The translations under genes were made by a program, and so were the position numbers. Below the pieces are notes generated by a model that was not told where the DNA came from, searched no databases, and saw only the letters and a program-made list of their open reading frames with translations. Positions 1-10,271 of a stretch of 10,271 nt of DNA are shown here, one piece after another. Origin of the DNA: Candidatus Helarchaeota ASGARD archaeon Hel_GB_B. Lineage in GTDB: Archaea; Asgardarchaeota; Lokiarchaeia; Helarchaeales; HEL-GB-B. Location of the stretch: NCBI GenBank assembly GCA_005191425.1, contig SUPR01000108.1, forward strand, positions 1 to 10,271. The letters are read 5' to 3'. How positions within the stretch are numbered: the first letter of the stretch is position 1; each line of letters begins with the position of its first letter.

Positions 1-2
1 GT

Positions 3-461
3 GAAAAGCTAAAACTAGGGGATTTGTTTGCTACTATAGTCCGTTCTTTAGATATTTTAGCTTGTCAGAAGAAAATTTCTCTCAGTTATGCACAAGACGC
101 TGAAAAAATAAATATTTTTGGAGACGAAGCTAAATTGGAAAAATTATTATTGAACAGGGTTCGGAATGCTATTAAATATACGGAAGAAAAAGGAAAAATT
201 TATTTATCTGCACGCAAGAAAAAGCAAGAAATAAAAATTTATATTAAAGACACGGGAATCGGAATTCCAAAAGAAGATTTGCCTTTTATTTTTGAGCGTT
301 TTTATAGAGTAGACAAGGCTCGTTCTCGGGGGGAGGGCGGAACTGGGCTCGGTCTTTCTATTTGTAAATGGATAGTTGAGGCGCATGGAGGAAAGATTGA
401 AGTTGAAAGTGAAGTGGGGAAAGGAACCACTTTTATTATTTCTTTGCCGATAAAAAAATAA
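3..461 (+). CDS. Two-component sensor histidine kinase, C-terminal HATPase_c domain (5'-partial; PhoR/WalK/CusS-like class)
   Basis: The frame is open from position 3 ([13 protein letters not shown]...), so the TTG at 24 is not the true start. Motifs seen: N box ([10 protein letters not shown]), G1 (IKDTGIGI), F box ([11 protein letters not shown]), G2 (GGTGLGLSI) and terminal GKGTTF. Stop is TAA at 459-461. Confidence 0.95.
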
Positions 462-472
462 AATATTTTTAT

Positions 473-502
473 AAAAATCTATTTGGAGAAAAGTAGATTT
501 TT
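473..502. other. AT-rich 9-bp inverted repeat (possible weak terminator, or operator over the -35 region of the next promoter)
   Basis: AAAAATCTA (473-481) and TAGATTTTT (494-502) are exact reverse complements with a 12-nt spacer. The stem is AT-rich, so it may be chance. Confidence 0.25.
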
Positions 503-524
503 TGTTATAATTGTGGTATAATAA
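494..524 (+). promoter_or_regulatory. Sigma70-type extended -10 promoter for the 547 operon
   Basis: TG-G-TATAAT at 514-522 is a perfect TGnTATAAT. There is no consensus -35 (TAGATT at 494-499). The sequence is repeated before the second operon. Confidence 0.75.
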
Positions 525-546
525 TTTACATTTTAAAAATTTTTGA

Positions 547-3297
547 ATGAGTAAATACTTTAAAATTTTTTTTGTTTTTATTTTATCTCTTGTTTTTATT
601 TTACCCATTTTAATAAAAGCAGAAGTAAATTCTTCTCCAGACGCTATAGCTATTAGAGTTCTGCCCAATGCAGAACATTTTAATATTTTAAGATGGTATA
701 ATTCCGAAGGTTTTAAGGGCTCGCCCCAACTCATATTAATAGATGATTATGAAGCTATTCGTGATGGTCGTACTGTATATGTTAATGCGGCTAATATAGA
801 CAGTAATAATCTTTATACCAATATTTATCTTATTTCTTATAATCAAGATGCTGAAAGCGCGACTTTAGATATATTTGGAGAAATTTTATCTCATTGGAAA
901 TTTAATATTAATTTAACGGAAGTGGGGGTATGTTCTGAGGACTCTGAAAAAAAATGTTTTTATGATTATGAATGTGGTGATAAAAGACAGCATTGTTTAA
1001 GTGATAAAGCCGAAACGATTAGGGATGTAAAACGCTTAGGGGATTTGGTTGAGATAAAAATATTATTGGAAAATTTTTTAGAAAAGGAAGGACATTATCC
1101 GATTCTTCGGTCTGGAACATATTTACCTAATAAAACTTTGTCTGTTTGGCCAAGCTGGAAAAGCAATTTATTTTATAAATTAGGAGTGAAGCCTATTTAT
1201 GATCCTGTTAATAAACTGGGAGATTGTGGAGATGATCGTTTTAATTTTATTACTTGCTGGGATGAGAAAACAAAAGAATTTGCTGATGGGGATTTATCAA
1301 CTCCGGAATTGGATTTGCCTCCTGATAGTTATATCTATTTTTATTCCGCCGCTGAAGATGGTTCCTCTTATGAAGCGTGTTCTATTATGGAATCAGGTTA
1401 TGTTAGCGGAGTAGACGGTGGGGATTGTGCGAGCTCGGAACAGCTAGTTATACATAATGTGCGTAAAAATCATCAACCGGTATTTTTATCCTCTGAATTT
1501 CCTATTAGTAATCCTTTCTCCGCATATGAAGGATATATTAAAGCTTATGATCCGGATGGTGATAATTTTACCTGGACGATGAATTTAATATCTTCTTGGA
1601 ATGCTTGGTTGCCAGGCGACACAATCCATATGAGATCAGGTCCCGTTTCTCATTTAGAGGTGGAAAAAGGGGTTCAGCATAAAAAGTTTTATGCAGATAC
1701 TTGCGGAGACTTTGGTACTTATACTTTCTCTATTACTTTAGATGATGGGCGAGGTCTTGCAAATAGTTTAAATGCTAAAAATTTTTCAGTTTTAATTGAT
1801 AATACTCCTCCTCGGATATTGGTTCCGGGAATAAGGCATGTGGTTAGTTCAACAAATCCATTAATTTTTAATATTAAAATGATGGATGAAAAAATTGATT
1901 ATCCTTTAACTTATTCTTTTCCGACTTCTTTAATTGCTGGTTTAAATGTTACTAATTTTAATATGGATGAAATGGGGTCTTATTATAATTTAGGAGTGGA
2001 AGGGATTACAAGTTCCTCCGATTATCCTCTTATTGTGGGAGAAGTTCCTTATTCTCAGAGAGTAAGGGGGATAAATAAATATAATCGGGAGACAACAAGA
2101 GATTTTGAGATTATTTTAATTAATCATGCTCCGGAAATTTTATCTACAGAAAGCTGTTCTGGGTATGCGACTGTGGGAGAAGCTTATCCTCCCTGTAAAA
2201 TAGAGGCGAGGGATATAGACGGACATCAATTTTCTTTTTCTTTAAGTTCCGCTCCAGCTGGACTTATAATTGATTCAGGAACTGGTATTATTTCCGGAAC
2301 GCCAAGTGTATCTTTTAGTGAAATATGTGTTCAGGTTACGGATGAATATGGACAGGATAGCTTGATAGAATGTTTTAACGTAGAGCCTTGTCGTGAGCAG
2401 GTGGTTGATTTTACAATAAATACGATAGCTGACGGACTTATTTTTGATAATGATGCAAATTATGCCATGGCCAACGATGAAGCTCCCAATAATTATTTAA
2501 AATTATCTTCGAGTATGCCGACTCCTTACATCTGGCTTGCTGATGCTCGCAATAATGAGGTTATAAAAATGAGAACTTTTGATGGTCTTCAGAAAACAAG
2601 GAATTTTGATGGTGATGGTCTTATAAATACTGGAATTTCAGAGCTTGAAGGAAATTTTCTAGGAGCTTTTAAAGTTGGATTTTCTCCTTCCCGTACTGCT
2701 GTTAACGCGGGAACAGGAGATGTTTGGATAGCGAATAGAGGCTATCCCAATACTTTAGGGGATACTACAATTACCAAGCTCGATGTAGATGGAAATCATT
2801 TAAAAACTTGTGAAACACAAGGAGAAGGAGCAAGGCCTGTGGTTATAGATAGACATGGGGATGTTTGGGTTGGAAATTATGAAAGTAATAATTTAGTTAA
2901 AATTTCCGGTGATGATCTTAGTTGTAATCCTTTGGTAAATTTATCGGTTTTATCTCCTTATGGTGCCGCTATTGATGCTAATGATAATATTTGGATTGTT
3001 AATGGCTTAAATTGTTCGGTAACTAGAGTTAATACTGAGACTCTAGATACTAAAGTTTTTGACTTAAGAGCTCTTTCAAATTGTGGAACAACAAATTCTA
3101 CTAATAATTATATATATGCTGTCTATGGGATTACGGTTGATACTTATAATAATGTTTGGGTAGCTGATCTGAATACCGGAATTTATAAAATAAATACATT
3201 ATTGGAAAATGTTGAACATTTTAATTTTTCTTCTGTTTTGAATCCTCCCTATGGACGCTCAAGAGGGGTTTCCGTTGATTCTTCGGGAGGAATTTGA
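547..3297 (+). CDS. N-terminal part of giant surface protein: signal peptide, DAIAIRV domain, pilin/GspG-like domain, three cadherin/Ig-like repeats, incomplete NHL/Vgb-like beta-propeller
   Basis: Hydrophobic signal peptide ending ILIKA. RDVKRLGDLVEIKILLENFLEKEGHYP is a pilin-like helix motif. Repeats start NHQP (1468), NTPP (1801) and NHAP (2122), with DxDG and APAGLIIDSGTGIISGTP motifs. Propeller blades follow DxxG/NxVW. Confidence 0.8.
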   Translation: MSKYFKIFFVFILSLVFILPILIKAEVNSSPDAIAIRVLPNAEHFNILRWYNSEGFKGSPQLILIDDYEAIRDGRTVYVNAANIDSNNLYTNIYLISYNQDAESATLDIFGEILSHWKFNINLTEVGVCSEDSEKKCFYDYECGDKRQHCLSDKAETIRDVKRLGDLVEIKILLENFLEKEGHYPILRSGTYLPNKTLSVWPSWKSNLFYKLGVKPIYDPVNKLGDCGDDRFNFITCWDEKTKEFADGDLSTPELDLPPDSYIYFYSAAEDGSSYEACSIMESGYVSGVDGGDCASSEQLVIHNVRKNHQPVFLSSEFPISNPFSAYEGYIKAYDPDGDNFTWTMNLISSWNAWLPGDTIHMRSGPVSHLEVEKGVQHKKFYADTCGDFGTYTFSITLDDGRGLANSLNAKNFSVLIDNTPPRILVPGIRHVVSSTNPLIFNIKMMDEKIDYPLTYSFPTSLIAGLNVTNFNMDEMGSYYNLGVEGITSSSDYPLIVGEVPYSQRVRGINKYNRETTRDFEIILINHAPEILSTESCSGYATVGEAYPPCKIEARDIDGHQFSFSLSSAPAGLIIDSGTGIISGTPSVSFSEICVQVTDEYGQDSLIECFNVEPCREQVVDFTINTIADGLIFDNDANYAMANDEAPNNYLKLSSSMPTPYIWLADARNNEVIKMRTFDGLQKTRNFDGDGLINTGISELEGNFLGAFKVGFSPSRTAVNAGTGDVWIANRGYPNTLGDTTITKLDVDGNHLKTCETQGEGARPVVIDRHGDVWVGNYESNNLVKISGDDLSCNPLVNLSVLSPYGAAIDANDNIWIVNGLNCSVTRVNTETLDTKVFDLRALSNCGTTNSTNNYIYAVYGITVDTYNNVWVADLNTGIYKINTLLENVEHFNFSSVLNPPYGRSRGVSVDSSGGI

Positions 3298-3576
3298 ATT
3301 ACCTTTGACCTTAGCAATCAAGTAATTAATATTCCTAATTCAAACAATCCTTCAGTTTATAACGCTTATGGTAGTGGTCTCTTTAGTCCCAGCCCATCAT
3401 CTTATTTCGTTGGTATAGCTGGAGATTCTGAAGGAAAAACTTGGGCTATTAATAGAGGTAATTTTACGAATGGGGAGGACGGAGCAGCTGTTGTATATAA
3501 TAGTTTAGGTCCTACGGGACATTTTTATAATGCTAATTCTGACCGGGGGAACGAATATACCTATACTTATAGCGAT

Positions 3577-5586
3577 ATGACTGGGCTTAATAGGGCTATG
3601 ATTTTTAGAAGTGGTGTTTGGTATCATCAATATGATAGCGCTTATGACGGGCAGTATTGGGGGCACGTATCTTTTAAGAAAATTATTCCTGGAGAGAAAC
3701 AGCAAGTAGAGCTTCTTCTGCGTTCTGGTGATAGTGCTGATCTTAGTTCGGAGACATGGATTAATTCAGATACTTGGAATAATTTAAATTTTAAGGATTC
3801 AAGAAGAAGAGGTCGTTATCTTGATTTAAAAATAAAAATGAAATCTCAGGAAAGAGGAATTAGTCCAGTAATTTGGGATGTGCGTATTAGCTGTGATTCT
3901 CCTTTCTGTGGAGATGATATTCAGCAAGCTCCTAATGATGATGGATTTATGGAGCAGTGTGATGGATCTAGTAATGTTTCTAATGGAGATCCCTTAGGTT
4001 GTTTGGTAAATTGTGAATGTGCTTCAAAATATCCTTGGGATGGCTTTGAATGTCAGGCGCCCTGTGATGATTTTGACTTTGTAGAAGAAAATTCTTGGAC
4101 TGGCTCTTCGATTTTACCTAGTTATAATCAGGTTATGATGACTCCCATAGCTGCTGATCTTGATGGAGATGGAAATATTGAAATACTTTTCAATGCCTTT
4201 GAGGGAAGTCATTATAATGGTGGTGGTTATTTAAGGGTTATTAATGGGAGAGATGCTACGGATAAATTTATAGCTGAAGGAGGTAATCCTCTTTACGAAA
4301 TATTTCCAGGAAGTAATCTAGCAGTTGGGGATATTGATAGTACTAGCCCTGGACTTGAAATTTTAGCTATAGCTGCTCAAGATTATATTGATTCTGGTTC
4401 TCCTCCTCATTATCTTATAGCTTTTAATGCAAATGGGGATTTTAAATGGTTTGGGCATAATACAGCAGGAAAATATGCTATAGGAGGTGGTCTAGCAGGT
4501 AGCCGAGAAGTTAGCTTGGTAGATATGGATTTAGATGGAGATGTGGAAATAGTGGTAGGTAACTATGTTTTTGACCATAACGGTAATTTTTTATGGGAAG
4601 CGGATTCAGCTGTTTTTGGATCTGCTCAAATTAATGCAATCGCGGATTTAAACGGGGATAATTATCCGGAAGTTGTTAGTCCTTCGGGTGCTTATCATTT
4701 TAATCCAACATTAGGAAGTTATGAATCATATTATACAATTCTCCCTGGTAATCCAGGATATGTCACTGTCGGATATATGGCAGTAGCTAATATTTTTGAT
4801 GATGATCCATATCCAGAAATAATATCAGTATCCTATAATCAAGTAAGAATTTTAAGTCATGAAGGGGATTTAGAGGATTATGCTTTCATTCCTTTTGTGA
4901 CGGGCTCTGCAGATCCTGACTGTGTTGCTGTAAATACTACTTGGCCACCCTCTAGTCCAATCACTGCAAATAAATATACTTGCCATAACCGTGGGGGAGG
5001 ACCTTCTACTGTAGCTGATTTTGATGGTGATGGTTTTCCGGAAATAGGAGTGGCTGCTGCTGATTATTATATTGTTTATGATATTGTTGGCAATAAATTA
5101 GAAGAACTTTGGAAAGTTCGCAATCATGATTATTCTTCGGCCATGACCGGATCATCCGTTTTTGATTTTAATGGTGATGGTCGAGCAGAAGTACTTTATG
5201 CGGATGAAAGTAATTTTATGATATTGAGAGGTTCGGACGGTACAGTTTTAAACATAATACCAAATTGTTCAGCGACTTTGTGGGAAAATCCGATTATAGT
5301 TGATATTGATAATGATGATATGGCGGAAGTTATTATTGCCGCTAATAATTATGGGAATTGTGGGGGCACATTTCCTACTGGGACATCTCCCTATACAGGA
5401 ATTAGAATTTTTGGAAGTGCGAATATAGATTGTATTTGGGAGGATGCTCGAGAGATATGGAATCAACATTCATATAATATAGTGAATATAAATACTGACG
5501 GTACTATTCCTTCTCCTATGGAAAGGAATTGGGAATATCCTCTCGGAAATCCTTATAATAATTATCGTCAGAATATCGCTGATTAA
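3577..5586 (+). CDS. C-terminal part of giant surface protein: beta-sandwich, Cys-rich (Myxococcus-type) repeat, FG-GAP/VCBS beta-propeller
   Basis: CGDDIQQAPNDDGFMEQCDG, then multiple FG-GAP-like loops (ADLDGDGNIEI, VDMDLDGDVEI, ADLNGDNYPEV, ADFDGDGFPEI, FDFNGDGRAEV, VDIDNDDMAEV) and WNQHSYNIVNINTDGTIP. There is no signal peptide or RBS, so this is probably not an independent gene. Confidence 0.75.
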   Translation: MTGLNRAMIFRSGVWYHQYDSAYDGQYWGHVSFKKIIPGEKQQVELLLRSGDSADLSSETWINSDTWNNLNFKDSRRRGRYLDLKIKMKSQERGISPVIWDVRISCDSPFCGDDIQQAPNDDGFMEQCDGSSNVSNGDPLGCLVNCECASKYPWDGFECQAPCDDFDFVEENSWTGSSILPSYNQVMMTPIAADLDGDGNIEILFNAFEGSHYNGGGYLRVINGRDATDKFIAEGGNPLYEIFPGSNLAVGDIDSTSPGLEILAIAAQDYIDSGSPPHYLIAFNANGDFKWFGHNTAGKYAIGGGLAGSREVSLVDMDLDGDVEIVVGNYVFDHNGNFLWEADSAVFGSAQINAIADLNGDNYPEVVSPSGAYHFNPTLGSYESYYTILPGNPGYVTVGYMAVANIFDDDPYPEIISVSYNQVRILSHEGDLEDYAFIPFVTGSADPDCVAVNTTWPPSSPITANKYTCHNRGGGPSTVADFDGDGFPEIGVAAADYYIVYDIVGNKLEELWKVRNHDYSSAMTGSSVFDFNGDGRAEVLYADESNFMILRGSDGTVLNIIPNCSATLWENPIIVDIDNDDMAEVIIAANNYGNCGGTFPTGTSPYTGIRIFGSANIDCIWEDAREIWNQHSYNIVNINTDGTIPSPMERNWEYPLGNPYNNYRQNIAD

Positions 5587-5590
5587 AAAA

Positions 5591-6463
5591 ATGGAAAATC
5601 AAGATAATCTACAAAAAAAGAATATTAAAGTAAAAATATTTTTATTATTAATATTGTTTTTATTTATAATTCTATTTATTTTGTTTCTTTATTTTTGGAT
5701 GCAGAATCTTAAAAATAAAGAAGATCTTAATTTGGGTGGAAATAATTTAGTAGAAACATCTTTTGAAAAAGAAGAAAAAATAAAAAATAATTCTTCAAAA
5801 TCGCCCTATAGTTCGGAGTATATTAAAACTAAAGAAGCTTTAGCTGAGAAAAATATTGAGAAATGTAGAGAATTAGAAGATGAACATAAAATTTCCAATT
5901 GTATTTATTCTTTAGCTACGCAGTATAAAGACAAAGAACTTTGTTTTCAGATAGAGGATTCTCAACTTCAGGAAAAATGTCAGGAATTTTTTCTTTATCT
6001 TCAGGTGCTTGAAGATAAAAATGCTGAGGAATGTTTAAAACTTCAGTTTAATAATTTTAAAGAGGCTTGTTTAAATACTATTTTTCAGGAGAAAAATAAT
6101 ATTTCCTATTGTGCAAATTTTTCCGATTTGGTCCGAGATAAATGTGAAAATATGTATTATAAACAGAAGGCTATTAAGGAAAAAGATAGCGCTGTTTGTT
6201 CTCAGATAAATGATGAGGGGAAAATGGAATCTTGTTATCATGTTTTGGAAAACACCATAGCTGATTCGGACGGAGATGGCTTAAGCGATACGATGGAGCG
6301 TTCTTATGGACTTAATCCGCATGATAGTGATACAGATAGCGATGGCTTAGATGATAGCAGTGAATTTAATTATAAAAGTGATCCTAAAAACCCCGATACG
6401 GACGGAGATGGCTATTTAGACGGTGCAGAAGTGGAGGCTGGCTTTAGCCCGATAGGAGAGTAA
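5591..6463 (+). CDS. Membrane-anchored protein with five Cys-pair repeats and C-terminal DxDxDG calcium-binding (bacterial thrombospondin type 3-like) repeats
   Basis: One N-terminal TM helix follows a Lys-rich start. C-x11-C occurs 4 times and C-x10-C once (5864-6235). DSDGDGLSD, DTDSDGLDD and DTDGDGYLDG lie in 6263-6460. The gene starts 4 nt after the upstream stop. Confidence 0.8.
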   Translation: MENQDNLQKKNIKVKIFLLLILFLFIILFILFLYFWMQNLKNKEDLNLGGNNLVETSFEKEEKIKNNSSKSPYSSEYIKTKEALAEKNIEKCRELEDEHKISNCIYSLATQYKDKELCFQIEDSQLQEKCQEFFLYLQVLEDKNAEECLKLQFNNFKEACLNTIFQEKNNISYCANFSDLVRDKCENMYYKQKAIKEKDSAVCSQINDEGKMESCYHVLENTIADSDGDGLSDTMERSYGLNPHDSDTDSDGLDDSSEFNYKSDPKNPDTDGDGYLDGAEVEAGFSPIGE

Positions 6464-6501
6464 TTTTTTAAGGTTTAGCGTTTATGATAATTTATATAAA
6501 A

Positions 6502-6533
6502 TAGATTTTTTTATTATAATTGTGGTATAATAA
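6502..6533 (+). promoter_or_regulatory. Sigma70-type extended -10 promoter for the 6669-9390 operon, near-identical to the one at 494-524
   Basis: TG-G-TATAAT at 6523-6531. TTATAATTGTGGTATAATAA (6514-6533) is identical to 505-524. Confidence 0.75.
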
Positions 6534-6545
6534 ATTTAAAGTTTA

Positions 6546-6630
6546 AAGAGACTAAGTCACTACGATTTTCATTGCTCAAAATTATATTTTAATATTTATT
6601 TGTTTTAAAATCGTAGTGACTTAGTCTCTT
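6546..6630. repeat. Perfect 24-bp inverted repeat with 37-nt spacer (REP/REPIN-like, MITE-like or leader RNA hairpin)
   Basis: AAGAGACTAAGTCACTACGATTTT (6546-6569) is the exact reverse complement of AAAATCGTAGTGACTTAGTCTCTT (6607-6630). Confidence 0.9.
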
Positions 6631-6668
6631 GGTTTCCCATCCGATTTTTTAATTTTGATTTTCCCAAT

Positions 6669-7067
6669 ATGTCCCCCAAAAACGCCATCCTAATTCTAAT
6701 CATCATGGCCTGTATATCATTTGGCACGCTTTTTTATTTGGTGAAGGATAGGAAGCTGGTTAATAGAGTTCAAGATGATGAGACGATGATGGTAGAGATG
6801 GAAAAAGATATAGGAACAGAGCTAAGCGAAGAACAAAAAAAAGACTTAGAATTAAAAAATTATATCAATAATTTAAAACAAAGTGATATTAAAGAATATG
6901 ATAGAGTATTACCCGAAACTACTCAAAAAATAGTTGATTTGATTAATGAACGAAGTGATGAAAAAAGAGCTTTAATGACTGAGAAAGAGAAACAAGCAGA
7001 AAAAGAAAGAATAGATGAGATTAAAAAAAGAGTAGATATGATTAATGCAGAAATGGAAAAAGAATAA
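6669..7067 (+). CDS. Hypothetical single-pass membrane protein with a highly charged, probably helical/coiled-coil C-terminal region
   Basis: 132-aa ORF with N-terminal TM (AILILIIMACISFGTLFYLV) and an E/K-rich remainder; no family recognised. Confidence 0.7.
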   Translation: MSPKNAILILIIMACISFGTLFYLVKDRKLVNRVQDDETMMVEMEKDIGTELSEEQKKDLELKNYINNLKQSDIKEYDRVLPETTQKIVDLINERSDEKRALMTEKEKQAEKERIDEIKKRVDMINAEMEKE

Positions 7068-7093
7068 TTTTAAATATAAATTAAATTTAAAAT

Positions 7094-7915
7094 ATGCAAA
7101 TTAAAAAACATTTTAAACTAGCTACTTATCTAGCTATCACTGTATTTCTTACTTTAGGATTATCTATTTCTTTCCAGTCTCTTTTAGCCTCTTGGCAAGC
7201 ACCAGGGTCAGCTCCGCCTTCAAGCACTATTTCAGCACCAATAAATGAGGGGGTTAATTTGCAAGCAAAATATGGACATCTATTACTGGATGGTAATGCT
7301 TCTCTAAATTCACCCGTTCTTCAATTGACTAATAAGCATGCCAGTGAAAATTCTTTTTTAGTGGAAGATGAAGCAGGCGATACAAGTCCTTTTGTAATTG
7401 ATAAAGATGGGAATGTTGGGATTGGAAAAACTGTTCCAGTGGCAAAACTGGATTTAGCTGGTAATTTAAATATGAATTTAAATGAAATTAGAAGTGTGTC
7501 AACTATAACTCTGTATGCTCTTCCTGATGATTGGATGAGATTATATACTATAGATGGTAATAACTCTCATATCGAGTGGGGAGATAACGCAGATGATAAA
7601 TTAGTCTTTTCGTTTAATTATTGGGATCCTGCACATCCTGAGCTTGATAAAGATGCATTAACACTAATAGCTAATGGAAATGTGGAAATTAGTAATGGTA
7701 ACCTAATGCTTTCGGATAGTTGGATTTCTAATGATGGAGAAAATAAAGGCATTAGAATTGATGATGATGGCAATGTGGGGATTGGGACGGATAATCCAAC
7801 GCAAAAGCTAGAAGTCGTTGGCGGACTTATAAAAGCGACCGGTGGGCTTATTATAGAAACAAGAGCTACTGATCCAGACACTCCAGTTAATGGCCAGATT
7901 TGGCTTATTAATTGA
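7094..7915 (+). CDS. Secreted or anchored fibre-like protein with GNVGIG repeats (Parcubacteria-type surface protein)
   Basis: N-terminal hydrophobic segment, then SWQAPGSAPP...APINEG...QAKYG. GNVGIG occurs at 7409-7426 and 7769-7786, with a GNVEIS variant at 7676. The C-terminus is GGLIIETRATDPDTPVNGQIWL. Confidence 0.75.
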   Translation: MQIKKHFKLATYLAITVFLTLGLSISFQSLLASWQAPGSAPPSSTISAPINEGVNLQAKYGHLLLDGNASLNSPVLQLTNKHASENSFLVEDEAGDTSPFVIDKDGNVGIGKTVPVAKLDLAGNLNMNLNEIRSVSTITLYALPDDWMRLYTIDGNNSHIEWGDNADDKLVFSFNYWDPAHPELDKDALTLIANGNVEISNGNLMLSDSWISNDGENKGIRIDDDGNVGIGTDNPTQKLEVVGGLIKATGGLIIETRATDPDTPVNGQIWLIN

Positions 7916-7950
7916 TTAATAAGGATTAAATTTATTTTGAAAATATTATC

Positions 7951-9390
7951 ATGAGAAAAATATTTAAAATTACAATTTTTGCTTTTCTCTTACTTATTTT
8001 TGTTTTACCAAAATATGTAGAGTCTGCGGAGTGGGATATTGTTAATACGGTTGATTTGGATAATATTTCTTTTCTTCTTCCTATGATAGCCGGGTTGGAT
8101 GAGGAAGGTTTTACTCCTGTAGGTTCTTGGTATTTTGTAGAAGAAGAGGGGGATTGGCTTTATGTATTTAGAGCTCCTGCAAATGGTCAATCATATATTG
8201 AGAAAAGAAGAAAATCAGATTTAAGCTTGGCAGGAGGTTGGACTTTTGATGCTGGTATGACGATTTTTGATTATGAGATTGATGAAAATTATATATATGT
8301 AATTGGTGTTAATGCTACAACATTTGATCTACCTGGAAGGGGTCCTCTTTATGTTTCTAAAATAAACAAAAGCAATGGTTTACCACAAGTTTATAAAGAG
8401 AATGCCGGGCCTTATGGTGGGGGATATGATCCAGTAGTTATAAATATTAATTTTCCTCATTATAATAAATTAAGCTCTGATGAAAATTTTTTATATTTTA
8501 GTGGGGTTACTTTTGATAATGATAGTTGGCAGACAGGAGATTGGATAATTGGGCGATTAAATAAAAGTGATTTAAAAATTGGTAGTGGTTGGGTTAAAAC
8601 TGATCTGTTGGTTTATGATACCTCCTTAATATTTTCCATAGTTGATGACCTTACTGTATATAATGGAGAGCTTTATGCTTTTGGTATGAATGAGTTAGGA
8701 CCATCTGGAGAATATGCTAAATATATGATAGACAGAAGGGACGTTTCAGGAACTTCAAATTGGAATATGGGTTTTACTAGTGTTCCCATGTGTTGTGCAA
8801 AATATGCTTTTGATGGAAATAATTTATATATAGAAAATTACCTTGGAACCGAAACTAAAAAATTTGATATTATCACAAAGCAAGAATTGCCCTATGACAC
8901 TTGGCCATCTCCAGTATTTGAAGGAGATTATTATTACAAACAAAGCAGAAAAACATATTATGAGGAAAATTCTATGCAGGGAGATTTTGGTTGGCGGATT
9001 GATAAATTTCATAAAGACGATTTAAATACTTCTGTTTCGTTTTTAGAAGAGAACCCACATGTTTCTGGGGCGGCTGGGTCTGAAGATGTAATCCAAAGGA
9101 TGGTTTATGACGATAGTGCTATATATATTATTGAAAAATGTGTGGGCTGTTCTAAAATGCGCTTGAGAAAAATTGAAAAAGAAGCTCCTGCTTATATTGA
9201 TATCGGCCTAAAAGTCTACAACGGGACAGAAACAGTTTCTATCGCCTGTGAATCAGGAGAAGCATCTCCTTTAAGAATAAGTAAGGGTGGGATTACTTAT
9301 GGAATAGTTTTAGTAGATCCGGGAGACTCTGCTGACTCAGGCGTGCATATTAGGGTTAATGGAGCCACAAAGGCATTGAGAAAAATGTAA
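7951..9390 (+). CDS. Secreted putative beta-propeller protein with a distinct 65-aa C-terminal module
   Basis: Signal peptide, seven (D/E)xxxLY-type repeats each followed by an I-x-K/R strand, and C-terminal YIDIGLKVYNG...SPLRISKGG..YGIVLVDP...KALRKM. Confidence 0.75.
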   Translation: MRKIFKITIFAFLLLIFVLPKYVESAEWDIVNTVDLDNISFLLPMIAGLDEEGFTPVGSWYFVEEEGDWLYVFRAPANGQSYIEKRRKSDLSLAGGWTFDAGMTIFDYEIDENYIYVIGVNATTFDLPGRGPLYVSKINKSNGLPQVYKENAGPYGGGYDPVVININFPHYNKLSSDENFLYFSGVTFDNDSWQTGDWIIGRLNKSDLKIGSGWVKTDLLVYDTSLIFSIVDDLTVYNGELYAFGMNELGPSGEYAKYMIDRRDVSGTSNWNMGFTSVPMCCAKYAFDGNNLYIENYLGTETKKFDIITKQELPYDTWPSPVFEGDYYYKQSRKTYYEENSMQGDFGWRIDKFHKDDLNTSVSFLEENPHVSGAAGSEDVIQRMVYDDSAIYIIEKCVGCSKMRLRKIEKEAPAYIDIGLKVYNGTETVSIACESGEASPLRISKGGITYGIVLVDPGDSADSGVHIRVNGATKALRKM

Positions 9391-9512
9391 TAATGGTATT
9401 TGCTCACTTCCTTAAATTTATTATTAATTAAATATTAAAATATAAAATTTGATATATGTCAAAACTAAAGGAGGGAATGAAGTTGTATTGAGAATCAGTT
9501 TTTAAAATTTTT

Positions 9513-9581
9513 ATGTCAAATAGAGACGAATTTCAAATAGGTGAATTTTATTATGTCTTTAACTGTGGGACGAAAAGATGA
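9513..9581 (+). pseudogene. N-terminal remnant of a REP-associated/IS200-like Y1 (HUH) transposase
   Basis: Translates MSNRDEFQIGEFYYVFNCGTKR*, resembling the N-terminal G-E-x-Y-H-(I/V)-x-N-R-G-x-x-K-R motif I recall for RAYT-type transposases. It is only 22 codons, with H to Y and R to C changes. Confidence 0.55.
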
Positions 9582-9607
9582 TTGTTTTGGTTTCTTCTTA
9601 TTGTATG
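9577..9607 (+). repeat. 31-bp exact direct repeat, copy 1 (intergenic; copy 2 is inside tsaC)
   Basis: GATGATTGTTTTGGTTTCTTCTTATTGTATG occurs at both 9577-9607 and 10062-10092. Confidence 0.95.
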
Positions 9608-9778
9608 ACTAAGAGATAAAATTAGAAATTATAAATAATTTTAATAAGAACTTTATATAAAAAGTACAGTAAACTGTGTATTTTTAAATTAGTATTAAAA
9701 AGTAGCTATTTTTAGATAAAAGCGGCTATTTTCTATTTTGGTTTATTACTATTAAAATAACTTATTAGTTTCCAAAAA

Positions 9779-9790
9779 TTGTGTTAAAAT
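9779..9790 (+). promoter_or_regulatory. Possible extended -10 promoter upstream of tsaC
   Basis: TTGTG-T-TAAAAT (TG at 9782-9783, hexamer 9785-9790) resembles the TTGTG-G-TATAAT core of the other two promoters. Confidence 0.4.
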
Positions 9791-9945
9791 GGAATTACTA
9801 ACTCCATAATTATAAACCATAATGCCAATAAAAAACGCTATAAAAAAATTAAGCGCTATTTTGAAAAATGTATTATAAAAGTATATCAACAAATTAGTAT
9901 GCTTTTATGAAAAGTCTGCTAATAGACTATATGTAATTATGTAAT

Positions 9946-10271
9946 ATGCCAAAAATATTTATATACCCTACGGATACAATTTACGGCTTGGGATGCAAGG
10001 CGATAGATAGACAGGCTGTCCTGGAATTGTTTAAAATAAAAAAAAGAGACATTAATAAGCCGATGATTGTTTTGGTTTCTTCTTATTGTATGGTTAAAAA
10101 ATATTTTTTTATTTCTAAAAAACAAGAAAAATATTTACGGACTGTTTGGCCGAGAACTAGTGCTGACGCTCGAAAAGAAAATTTAGATTATAGAATAAGG
10201 TCGACTACGGTAATTTTAAAAGCTAGAGATAATTTTCCAAAAGAACTTTTGGCTAGTGATGAAAGTGGAGC
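9946..10271 (+). CDS. tsaC: L-threonylcarbamoyladenylate synthase (TsaC/YrdC/Sua5 family), 3'-partial
   Basis: I translated MPKIFIYPTDTIYGLGCKAIDRQAVLELFKIKKRDINKPMIVLVSS...VWP..., which has the hallmark PTDTxYGL and KxR...KP motifs. The frame is open to the window end and absent from the ORF track. Confidence 0.92.
   Translation, partial: MPKIFIYPTDTIYGLGCKAIDRQAVLELFKIKKRDINKPMIVLVSSYCMVKKYFFISKKQEKYLRTVWPRTSADARKENLDYRIRSTTVILKARDNFPKELLASDESG
10062..10092 (+). repeat. 31-bp exact direct repeat, copy 2 (within tsaC, encoding MIVLVSSYCM)
   Basis: Identical to 9577-9607. Confidence 0.95.

What the first reader, a model, noticed from the sequence alone, without database searches (positions are those of the whole stretch)
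3295..3297. A single in-frame TGA at an invariant Trp splits one 1679-aa gene: readthrough, nonsense switch-off or error
Seen: neighbouring blades read DRHGDVW, DANDNIW, DTYNNVW and DSEGKTW, while this one reads DSSGGI*. The next 93 codons are open and complete the propeller, and the downstream ATG is inside YTYSDMTG with no RBS. About 29 other Trp codons in the gene are TGG, and TGA acts as a plausible stop at 7913-7915, so genome-wide recoding is unlikely. The context is UGA-A, versus UGA-U at the real stop. Established: in E. coli, UGA read-through typically inserts Trp and depends on the next base. Inference: a recent TGG to TGA mutation silencing a costly adhesin (possibly polymorphic), a consensus error, or leaky readthrough giving long and short forms. 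A stop mid-propeller makes a functional short form less likely.
Basis: partly seen in the sequence, partly recalled or inferred. Interest (0 to 1): 0.78.

Follow-up and report, generated by a model that had tools for sequence, protein, structure and literature searches.

The report
Premature stop in giant surface-protein gene
One G-to-A change has turned a strictly conserved tryptophan codon into a stop in the middle of a 1679-codon secreted surface-protein gene of an uncultured ultra-small (CPR/Patescibacteria) bacterium; it looks like an ordinary, recent gene knock-out and not a new way of reading the genetic code.

Summary
TGA at 3295-3297 sits in frame in a 1679-codon reading frame (547-5586), at a column that is Trp in 20 of 20 aligned homologues. 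In 80 genomic relatives the aligned codon is TGG (55), Tyr or Phe (24) or a gap (1), never a stop. The TGA is in four assemblies that differ from each other by SNPs, and in a Logan contig from a second run of the same sample, so it is not an assembly consensus slip.

The contig does not belong to the archaeal MAG it was binned with. It is a Falkowbacteria/Parcubacteria-like bacterial contig. In about 21 kb of that bacterium, TGA ends six normal-length genes, four of them as UGA-A. Apart from this codon, every in-frame Trp codon examined is TGG. Recoding is therefore rejected.

The 762 codons after the stop show no decay: no further stop, and 25 of 25 conserved columns kept. The AlphaFold2 model places the stop in blade 6 of a 7-blade propeller. 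A relative lacks the whole gene, so it is accessory.

Best reading: a recent TGG-to-TGA nonsense mutation, with at most basal Trp readthrough. This scan's earlier notes report several similar TGG-to-TGA cases in other Patescibacteria genomes. Interest is low.

The parts
547..5586 (+). Whole 1679-codon reading frame of the giant secreted protein (one in-frame TGA, final stop TAA)
   Evidence: Homologues P0002, P0005, P0006 and P0012 align end to end with residues 1-1117.
547..621 (+). N-terminal hydrophobic signal-peptide-like segment (residues 1-25), judged by eye
   Evidence: Translation. No signal-peptide predictor was run.
2521..3531 (+). Seven-blade NHL/YVTN/Vgb-lyase-like beta-propeller (residues about 659-995)
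   Evidence: AlphaFold2 model m653011ff7b91, mean pLDDT 82.8. Foldseek top matches are 1l0q, Vgb lyase 2z2p, and NHL and PknD propellers. Weak Pfam Vgb_lyase hit.
3295..3297 (+). In-frame TGA at codon 917, an invariant Trp column, in blade 6 of 7
3298..5586 (+). 762 open codons after the TGA: rest of the propeller, beta-sandwich, Cys-rich linker and FG-GAP domain, ending in TAA
   Evidence: No stop in frame versus 29-115 in the other frames. 25/25 conserved columns kept. FG-GAP_3 and FG-GAP Pfam hits.
3577..3579 (+). First in-frame start codon after the TGA; the Met inside invariant YTYSDMTG, so not a real gene start
3607..3891 (+). Beta-sandwich domain that ends the conserved family module (residues about 1021-1115)
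   Evidence: Model strands 382-476. Homologues stop at about residue 1117.
4114..5583 (+). Lineage-specific C-terminal FG-GAP/VCBS-type repeat domain (approximate bounds)
   Evidence: Pfam PF13517 and PF01839. None of the homologues' BLASTP alignments reaches past about residue 1173.
7913..7915 (+). Genuine TGA stop of the 273-aa gene on the same contig
505..524 (+). 20-bp promoter-like block, copy 1, upstream of the giant gene
6514..6533 (+). Identical 20-bp block, copy 2, upstream of the 132-aa gene. The two copies bracket the 6-kb giant-gene plus TSP3-gene cassette that relative L090 lacks.

Best explanation
A genuine, evolutionarily recent nonsense mutation (TGG to TGA, a third-position G-to-A transition) interrupts an accessory giant surface-protein gene of a Falkowbacteria/Parcubacteria-like CPR bacterium. 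The organism uses TGA as a normal stop, so most ribosomes should terminate at codon 917. The released 916-residue secreted fragment would have an unclosed propeller and lack the beta-sandwich and FG-GAP domains, so it is most likely non-functional. Full-length protein would arise only when Trp-tRNA(CCA) misreads UGA at the basal rate; that misreading would happen to restore the wild-type residue. Shown: the stop is real, it lies at an invariant Trp, TGA is a genuine stop in this organism, the downstream part has not decayed, and a relative lacks the gene. Inferred: loss of function, recency, and the low level of readthrough.
For: The TGA is present in four assemblies that differ by SNPs and in a second run of the same sample. 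Its column is Trp in 20/20 homologues, and the aligned codon is TGG or Tyr/Phe in 79 of 80 genomic relatives (one gap), never a stop. In the same bacterium TGA ends the response regulator (228 aa), the 273-aa gene, Sua5/YrdC (187 aa), NusB (143 aa), RNase III (230 aa) and a PilT-like ATPase (350 aa). Apart from codon 917 there is no in-frame TGA: 48 TGG on the window, and 60 TGG in the genes of the fetched loci, which partly overlap the window and include relative L090. The downstream 762 codons are open (about 4e-26 by composition). They keep 25/25 columns that are at least 90% conserved, and their identity ratio to homologues (0.90) is no lower than upstream (0.85), so the event is young. 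The stop falls in blade 6 of a 7-blade propeller. A relative with 80% identical kinase lacks the giant gene and the TSP3 gene at this spot, so the gene is dispensable. No RNA structure follows the stop (z = 0.20) and there is no Rfam match. UGA readthrough in E. coli and Salmonella is reported at about 1e-3 to 1e-2 and is set by competition between Trp-tRNA and RF2 (PMC4989110, PMC10570021).
Against: The lack of any decay downstream is equally what one would see if the gene were still used through readthrough. No close orthologue (best 43% identity) or intact allele was found, so neither the ancestral TGG in this lineage nor dN/dS could be shown directly. Only assembled contigs were available, so a co-existing TGG minor allele cannot be excluded. 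The RF2 and tRNA-Trp genes of this bacterium are not on the DNA recovered.
Confidence: 0.72

Rival explanations
1. Functionally meaningful leaky readthrough. The UGA is tolerated or kept because near-cognate Trp-tRNA reads it often enough to supply a low dose of full-length surface protein, as in the phage Qbeta A1 protein.
For: UGA is the leakiest stop, and Trp-tRNA competes with RF2 for it (PMC4989110, PMC10570021). Misreading would restore the invariant Trp exactly. The downstream 762 codons are fully intact. tRNA-Trp variants with a 4-bp anticodon stem that raise UGA reading occur in many bacterial phyla (PMC13092985). This scan's earlier notes list several TGG-to-TGA cases in Patescibacteria; that is a lead only.
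Against: No stimulatory structure follows the stop (z = 0.20). The UGA-A context is shared by four genuine stops of the same organism. No relative has a stop at this column. The short form would be a broken propeller. No other in-frame TGA turned up in about 130 kb of this bacterium and other CPR-labelled loci; one further hit lay in a 54%-GC locus and was disregarded.
Confidence: 0.12
2. Sequencing or assembly error: the true base at 3297 is G.
For: Coverage is modest, about 10x in X1. The four assemblies may draw on overlapping read sets from one study.
Against: The window, L084, L085 and L086 carry different SNPs elsewhere but all have TGA. A contig from a second run (X4, depth 22.5) matches exactly over 3187-3443. 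A substitution is not a typical Illumina assembly artefact.
Confidence: 0.04
3. Altered or ambiguous genetic code: UGA is read as Trp in this bacterium, as in Mycoplasma or the Patescibacteria family JAKLIH01.
For: A UGA-to-Trp reassignment has recently been reported inside Patescibacteriota (PMC13092985). The position is an invariant Trp.
Against: [quoted passage not shown] Here UGA ends 6 of about 16 genes, and the products have normal lengths. Every other in-frame Trp codon examined is TGG. Reading TGA as sense would run the 273-aa gene 35 codons into the next gene.
Confidence: 0.04
4. Two working genes: a 916-aa secreted protein and a separately started downstream protein (from ATG 3577, or AUU 3298 behind the GGAGGA).
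For: Gene callers report 916-aa and 669-aa products. A GGAGGA lies directly upstream of the stop, before AUU 3298.
Against: All homologues run continuously across the site. ATG 3577 is the Met of an invariant motif. A restarted product would lack a signal peptide. GGAGGA encodes the Gly-Gly of the blade motif. The split falls inside blade 6.
Confidence: 0.03

Closest known systems
Ordinary nonsense-mutation pseudogenes in accessory surface-protein genes of reduced or AT-rich bacteria
   Same: A single TGG-to-TGA transition at a conserved Trp. The rest of the frame is intact. The gene is dispensable, being absent in a relative. TGA is a normal stop in the organism.
   Different: Inactivation is inferred, not measured. 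No intact sister allele was found to show the ancestral state directly.
Phage Qbeta A1 (readthrough) protein: leaky UGA read as Trp by tRNA-Trp (recalled from my own knowledge, not from a tool)
   Same: A UGA that, if misread by Trp-tRNA, gives a long form. The competition between tRNA-Trp and RF2 is as described in PMC10570021.
   Different: In Qbeta both the short and the long form are functional, and the stop is conserved. Here the short form is a truncated propeller, and no relative has a stop at this column.
UGA-to-Trp reassignment in Patescibacteriota family JAKLIH01 (order UBA6257) and in Mycoplasmatales (PMC13092985)
   Same: Same phylum; UGA at a Trp position.
   Different: JAKLIH01 has no UGA stops and no RF2. 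This bacterium ends six genes of normal length with UGA and otherwise writes Trp as TGG.
Tandem YVTN beta-propeller plus PKD domains of an archaeal surface-layer protein (PDB 1l0q); Vgb lyase and NHL propellers
   Same: The interrupted domain is modelled as a 7-blade propeller followed by a beta-sandwich. 1l0q is the best Foldseek match, E = 1.4e-12.
   Different: Sequence identity is only 12-22%. The query sits in a much larger mosaic protein with an Ig-like He_PIG domain and a C-terminal FG-GAP domain. No function has been tested.

Membership tests
Nonsense-mutation pseudogene (premature stop in an otherwise intact gene) | Stop codon at a position where homologues have a sense codon, one base change away | tested here: met
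   Trp in 20/20 proteins. TGG in 55 of 80 loci, Tyr/Phe in 24, a gap in 1, no stop.
Nonsense-mutation pseudogene (premature stop in an otherwise intact gene) | The organism uses that codon as a genuine stop | tested here: met
   TGA ends six genes of normal length in about 21 kb of the same bacterium.
Nonsense-mutation pseudogene (premature stop in an otherwise intact gene) | The change is in the DNA, not an assembly artefact | tested here: met
   Four assemblies with different SNPs plus a contig from a second run. Minor-allele frequency was not measurable from contigs.
Nonsense-mutation pseudogene (premature stop in an otherwise intact gene) | Full-length product is lost or strongly reduced | not testable with these tools
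   Needs proteomics or a reporter assay.
UGA-to-Trp codon reassignment (table 4; JAKLIH01-type) | Many in-frame UGA at conserved Trp columns | tested here: not met
   One in-frame TGA. All other in-frame Trp codons are TGG: 48 on the window and 60 in the fetched loci, which partly overlap it.
UGA-to-Trp codon reassignment (table 4; JAKLIH01-type) | [quoted passage not shown] | tested here: not met
   6 of about 16 genes end in TGA. The criterion comes from PMC13092985.
UGA-to-Trp codon reassignment (table 4; JAKLIH01-type) | RF2 absent; tRNA(UCA) or a 4-bp-stem tRNA-Trp present | not testable with these tools
   The bin G000 is an archaeon (aRF1 present). The bacterium's own prfB and tRNA-Trp genes are not on the recovered contigs.
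Programmed stop-codon readthrough | Stop conserved at the site among relatives | tested here: not met
   No relative has a stop there, but the nearest relative is only 43% identical.
Programmed stop-codon readthrough | Stimulatory context or downstream RNA structure | tested here: not met
   Fold of 3280-3400 gives z = 0.20. No Rfam match. The UGA-A context is shared with genuine stops.
Selenocysteine insertion at UGA | SECIS hairpin just downstream, and Cys/Sec in homologues | tested here: not met
   No structure. The column is Trp, Tyr or Phe.
NHL/YVTN/Vgb-lyase-type beta-propeller surface proteins | Six- or seven-blade propeller of four-stranded blades with a repeated D-x-x-G-x-V-W-like motif | tested here: met
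   Model of about 28 strands, pLDDT 82.8. Foldseek probability 1.00 to 1l0q, 2z2p and NHL domains. Motifs listed.

The most novel reading that the evidence does not exclude
CPR bacteria such as this one might tolerate TGG-to-TGA changes because their translation apparatus reads UGA as Trp at an unusually high rate, for instance through a tRNA-Trp with a 4-bp anticodon stem or weak RF2. In that case the gene would still deliver a low, possibly regulated, dose of full-length surface protein. Such an ambiguous intermediate would lie on the path to the full UGA-to-Trp reassignment already reported in one Patescibacteria family.
Probability: 0.08. Interest if true: 0.65.

Novelty: new member of a known kind. 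Interest (0 to 1): 0.2.

Why it matters
Mostly as a caution. An in-frame TGA at a conserved Trp in an AT-rich CPR genome looks like recoding, but here it is explained by a single young nonsense mutation, and the neighbouring genes settle the code. The case also shows that statistics from the enclosing MAG can mislead: the contig is a bacterial contaminant of an archaeal bin. If readthrough turned out to be substantial, the site would be a natural reporter for UGA leakiness in an uncultured lineage whose phylum contains a full UGA-to-Trp reassignment.

Tried and rejected
- **Recoding via the whole bin.** Stop usage in G000 (TAA 1506, TGA 342, TAG 222 among long ORFs) and its tRNAs (7 found, none Trp or UCA) were examined. 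They were then set aside because G000 is an archaeon (aRF1 present, no RF2) and the contig is bacterial.
- **Search for an intact allele or close orthologue.**
  - The protein search over residues 640-1140 gave a best hit of 43% identity.
  - The 'shorter' search over residues 830-1010 found only the 916-aa product itself.
  - An exact-pattern scan of JGI metagenome contigs, with N at the variable base, found nothing.
  - Relatives found through YchF either end before the site (L089) or lack the gene (L090, L092).
  - dN/dS before versus after the stop was therefore not computable. Only one SNP, synonymous at codon 115, separates the assemblies inside the gene.
- **Read pile-up.** Only Logan contigs were served, so allele frequency at 3297 is unknown. 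Runs X2 and X3 hold identical pieces of the gene, but none covers 3297.
- **Expression.** No RNA holder was listed.
- **Selenocysteine.** No SECIS-like fold, and the column is Trp.
- **Frameshift.** Not needed, because the same frame carries the homology on both sides of the stop.
- **Restart.** Restart at ATG 3577 or AUU 3298 was considered and rejected.
- **Other single-stop splits.** About 130 kb of this bacterium and other CPR-labelled loci were scanned. Only this site recurred. One further hit, in a 54%-GC locus, was not followed up and may be an antisense open frame.

Full report
- The window has an ORF at 547..3297 (916 aa) ending in TGA. The same frame then stays open for 762 more codons to TAA at 5584-5586, giving 1679 codons in all.
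- The gene has 29 in-frame TGG and one TGA.
- The next in-frame start codon is ATG 3577, 93 codons on.

**The stop sits on an invariant Trp.**
- About 30 homologues (35-45% identical, 1000-1400 aa) run without a break across the site.
- In an alignment of 20 proteins the TGA column is an invariant Trp.
- In 80 genomic relatives the aligned codon is TGG in 55, Tyr or Phe in 24, a gap in 1, and never a stop.
- The three "internal stops" seen in tblastn matches are the homologues' natural ends near residue 1117.

**The stop is in the DNA, not an assembly artefact.**
- The identical 916-aa product is called on three other assemblies: ENA ERZ27227322, NCBI GCA_029935855.1 and Logan SRR21545388.
- These differ from the window and from each other by SNPs elsewhere, and all have TGA at the codon.
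- A 257-nt Logan contig from a second run of the same sample (X4, depth 22.5) matches 3187-3443 exactly.
- Only contigs were available, so a minor TGG allele cannot be excluded.

**The contig belongs to a different organism from its bin.**
- The window is the whole of contig C12 of a 3.5-Mb, 28% GC bin. That bin has an archaeal aRF1 and no RF2, so it is an archaeon, and its estimated contamination is 4.9%.
- C12 is 33% GC and ranks 7th of 182 contigs by tetranucleotide distance from the bin mean.
- The protein family was not found in 60 relatives of the archaeon. Its best relatives lie in Parcubacteria and Falkowbacteria MAGs.
- Longer assemblies extend the contig. Upstream are YchF, an OmpR-type regulator and a PAS kinase. 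Downstream are Sua5, bL32, NusB, RNase III and a PilT-like ATPase.
- YchF is 71-75% identical to Falkowbacteria and Parcubacteria proteins.
- C12 is therefore a misbinned CPR/Patescibacteria contig, and the bin's stop statistics do not bear on this gene.

**The genetic code is standard.**
- In about 21 kb of this bacterium, TGA ends six genes: the response regulator (228 aa, with the ATGA overlap to the kinase start), the 273-aa gene, Sua5/YrdC (187 aa), NusB (143 aa), RNase III (230 aa) and the PilT-like ATPase (350 aa). All have lengths I judge normal for their families.
- Apart from codon 917 there is no in-frame TGA. Trp is written TGG 48 times on the window and 60 times in the genes of the fetched loci, which partly overlap the window and include relative L090.
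- The one reported UGA-to-Trp reassignment in this phylum (family JAKLIH01) has no UGA stops and no RF2 (PMC13092985). This bacterium does not fit that pattern.
- No RNA structure follows the stop (z = 0.20), and Rfam finds nothing in the window. This speaks against SECIS-directed or structure-stimulated recoding.

**What the stop cuts.**
- The best homologues align end to end with residues 1-1117 and stop there. The FG-GAP domain beyond about residue 1140 is an extra module of this lineage.
- An AlphaFold2 model of residues 640-1140 (pLDDT 82.8) shows a seven-blade propeller followed by a beta-sandwich. Codon 917 lies in a strand of blade 6 by my count of the strands.
- The best fold matches are the YVTN propeller plus PKD pair of an archaeal S-layer protein (1l0q), Vgb lyase, and NHL propellers.
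- Termination would release a signal-peptide-bearing fragment with an unclosed propeller.
- A product restarted at 3577 would begin inside the invariant YTYSDMTG and would lack a signal peptide.
- No true gene start on this contig has a Shine-Dalgarno motif, so the "no RBS" argument is not informative either way.

**Age and dispensability.**
- The 762 downstream codons have no stop. The other five frames of that stretch have 29-115, and composition alone gives about 4e-26 for an open frame of that length.
- The query keeps 25 of 25 downstream columns that are at least 90% conserved in homologues.
- Relative to homologue-to-homologue identity, its identity to homologues is no lower after the stop (0.90) than before it (0.85).
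- The mutation is therefore young, or it is tolerated.
- A relative whose kinase is 80% identical has, between the kinase and the 132-aa gene, only a RelB gene and a single copy of the 20-bp promoter-like block. That block brackets the 6-kb giant-gene plus TSP3-gene cassette here.
- The gene is thus accessory, which fits loss without penalty.

**Conclusion.**
- The best explanation is an ordinary, recent TGG-to-TGA nonsense mutation.
- UGA is the leakiest stop, at about 1e-3 to 1e-2 in enterobacteria (PMC4989110), and it is misread by Trp-tRNA in competition with RF2 (PMC10570021). A trace of wild-type full-length protein is therefore plausible.
- Nothing found here suggests that this readthrough is programmed.
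- Earlier notes of this scan report several similar TGG-to-TGA events in other Patescibacteria genomes, all judged young pseudogenes. I treat them as leads and did not test them.

Noticed in passing
window 1-10271 (= G000 contig C12): The whole contig is a CPR/Patescibacteria (Falkowbacteria/Parcubacteria-like) sequence binned into an archaeal MAG. The MAG has aRF1 and no RF2, 93.7% completeness and 4.9% contamination. The contig has 33% GC against 28% for the bin, ranks 7th of 182 by tetranucleotide distance, and its extensions carry bacterial NusB, bL32 and RNase III.
   Followed up: yes
window 505-524 and 6514-6533; L090 (reverse strand) upstream of its 136-aa gene: An identical 20-bp promoter-like block (two TATAAT hexamers) brackets the 6-kb cassette of the giant gene plus the TSP3-repeat gene. 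A relative (L090) has one copy of the block, a RelB gene and no cassette. This suggests insertion, or deletion by recombination between the two copies.
   Followed up: partly
window 3286-3300: GGAGGA, which encodes the Gly-Gly of the blade motif, lies directly upstream of AUU-UGA-AUU. This arrangement of a Shine-Dalgarno-like sequence next to a stop superficially recalls the prfB frameshift site. The homology continues in frame, so no shift is needed.
   Followed up: partly
window 3895-5586: The conserved family module ends at about residue 1117 in the best homologues (natural stops there in L005, L013 and L014). Here the frame reads on through a Cys-rich linker into an FG-GAP/VCBS-type domain, which looks like a lineage-specific C-terminal fusion.
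   Followed up: partly
window gene starts 547, 5591, 6669, 7094, 7951, 9946: None of the gene starts has a recognisable Shine-Dalgarno motif. All sit in A/T-rich leaders, and the giant gene starts only about 20 nt after the second TATAAT.
   Followed up: no
L084:2368-2370; L087:4392-4394, 5939-5941, 8106-8108: Four of the six genuine TGA stops of this bacterium have a back-up TAA or TAG within 3-7 codons (response regulator 7, Sua5 3, NusB 4, PilT-like 3). This is what one would expect if UGA is somewhat leaky.
   Followed up: no
L089:2-517 (ENA ERZ23491052, scaffold DOMB18-1_SAMN06251743); run X3: The same species (99.4% DNA identity over 5.3 kb) occurs in a metagenome assembly from another sample. 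Run X3, a 2017 marine-sediment metagenome from another study, also holds identical pieces of the gene. In L089 the first 172 codons of the giant gene are identical, but the contig ends before the TGA site.
   Followed up: partly
G000 whole genome: ARAGORN finds only 7 tRNA genes in the 3.5-Mb archaeal bin, with none for Trp. Intron-containing archaeal tRNAs or unassembled tRNA loci are the likely reason.
   Followed up: no
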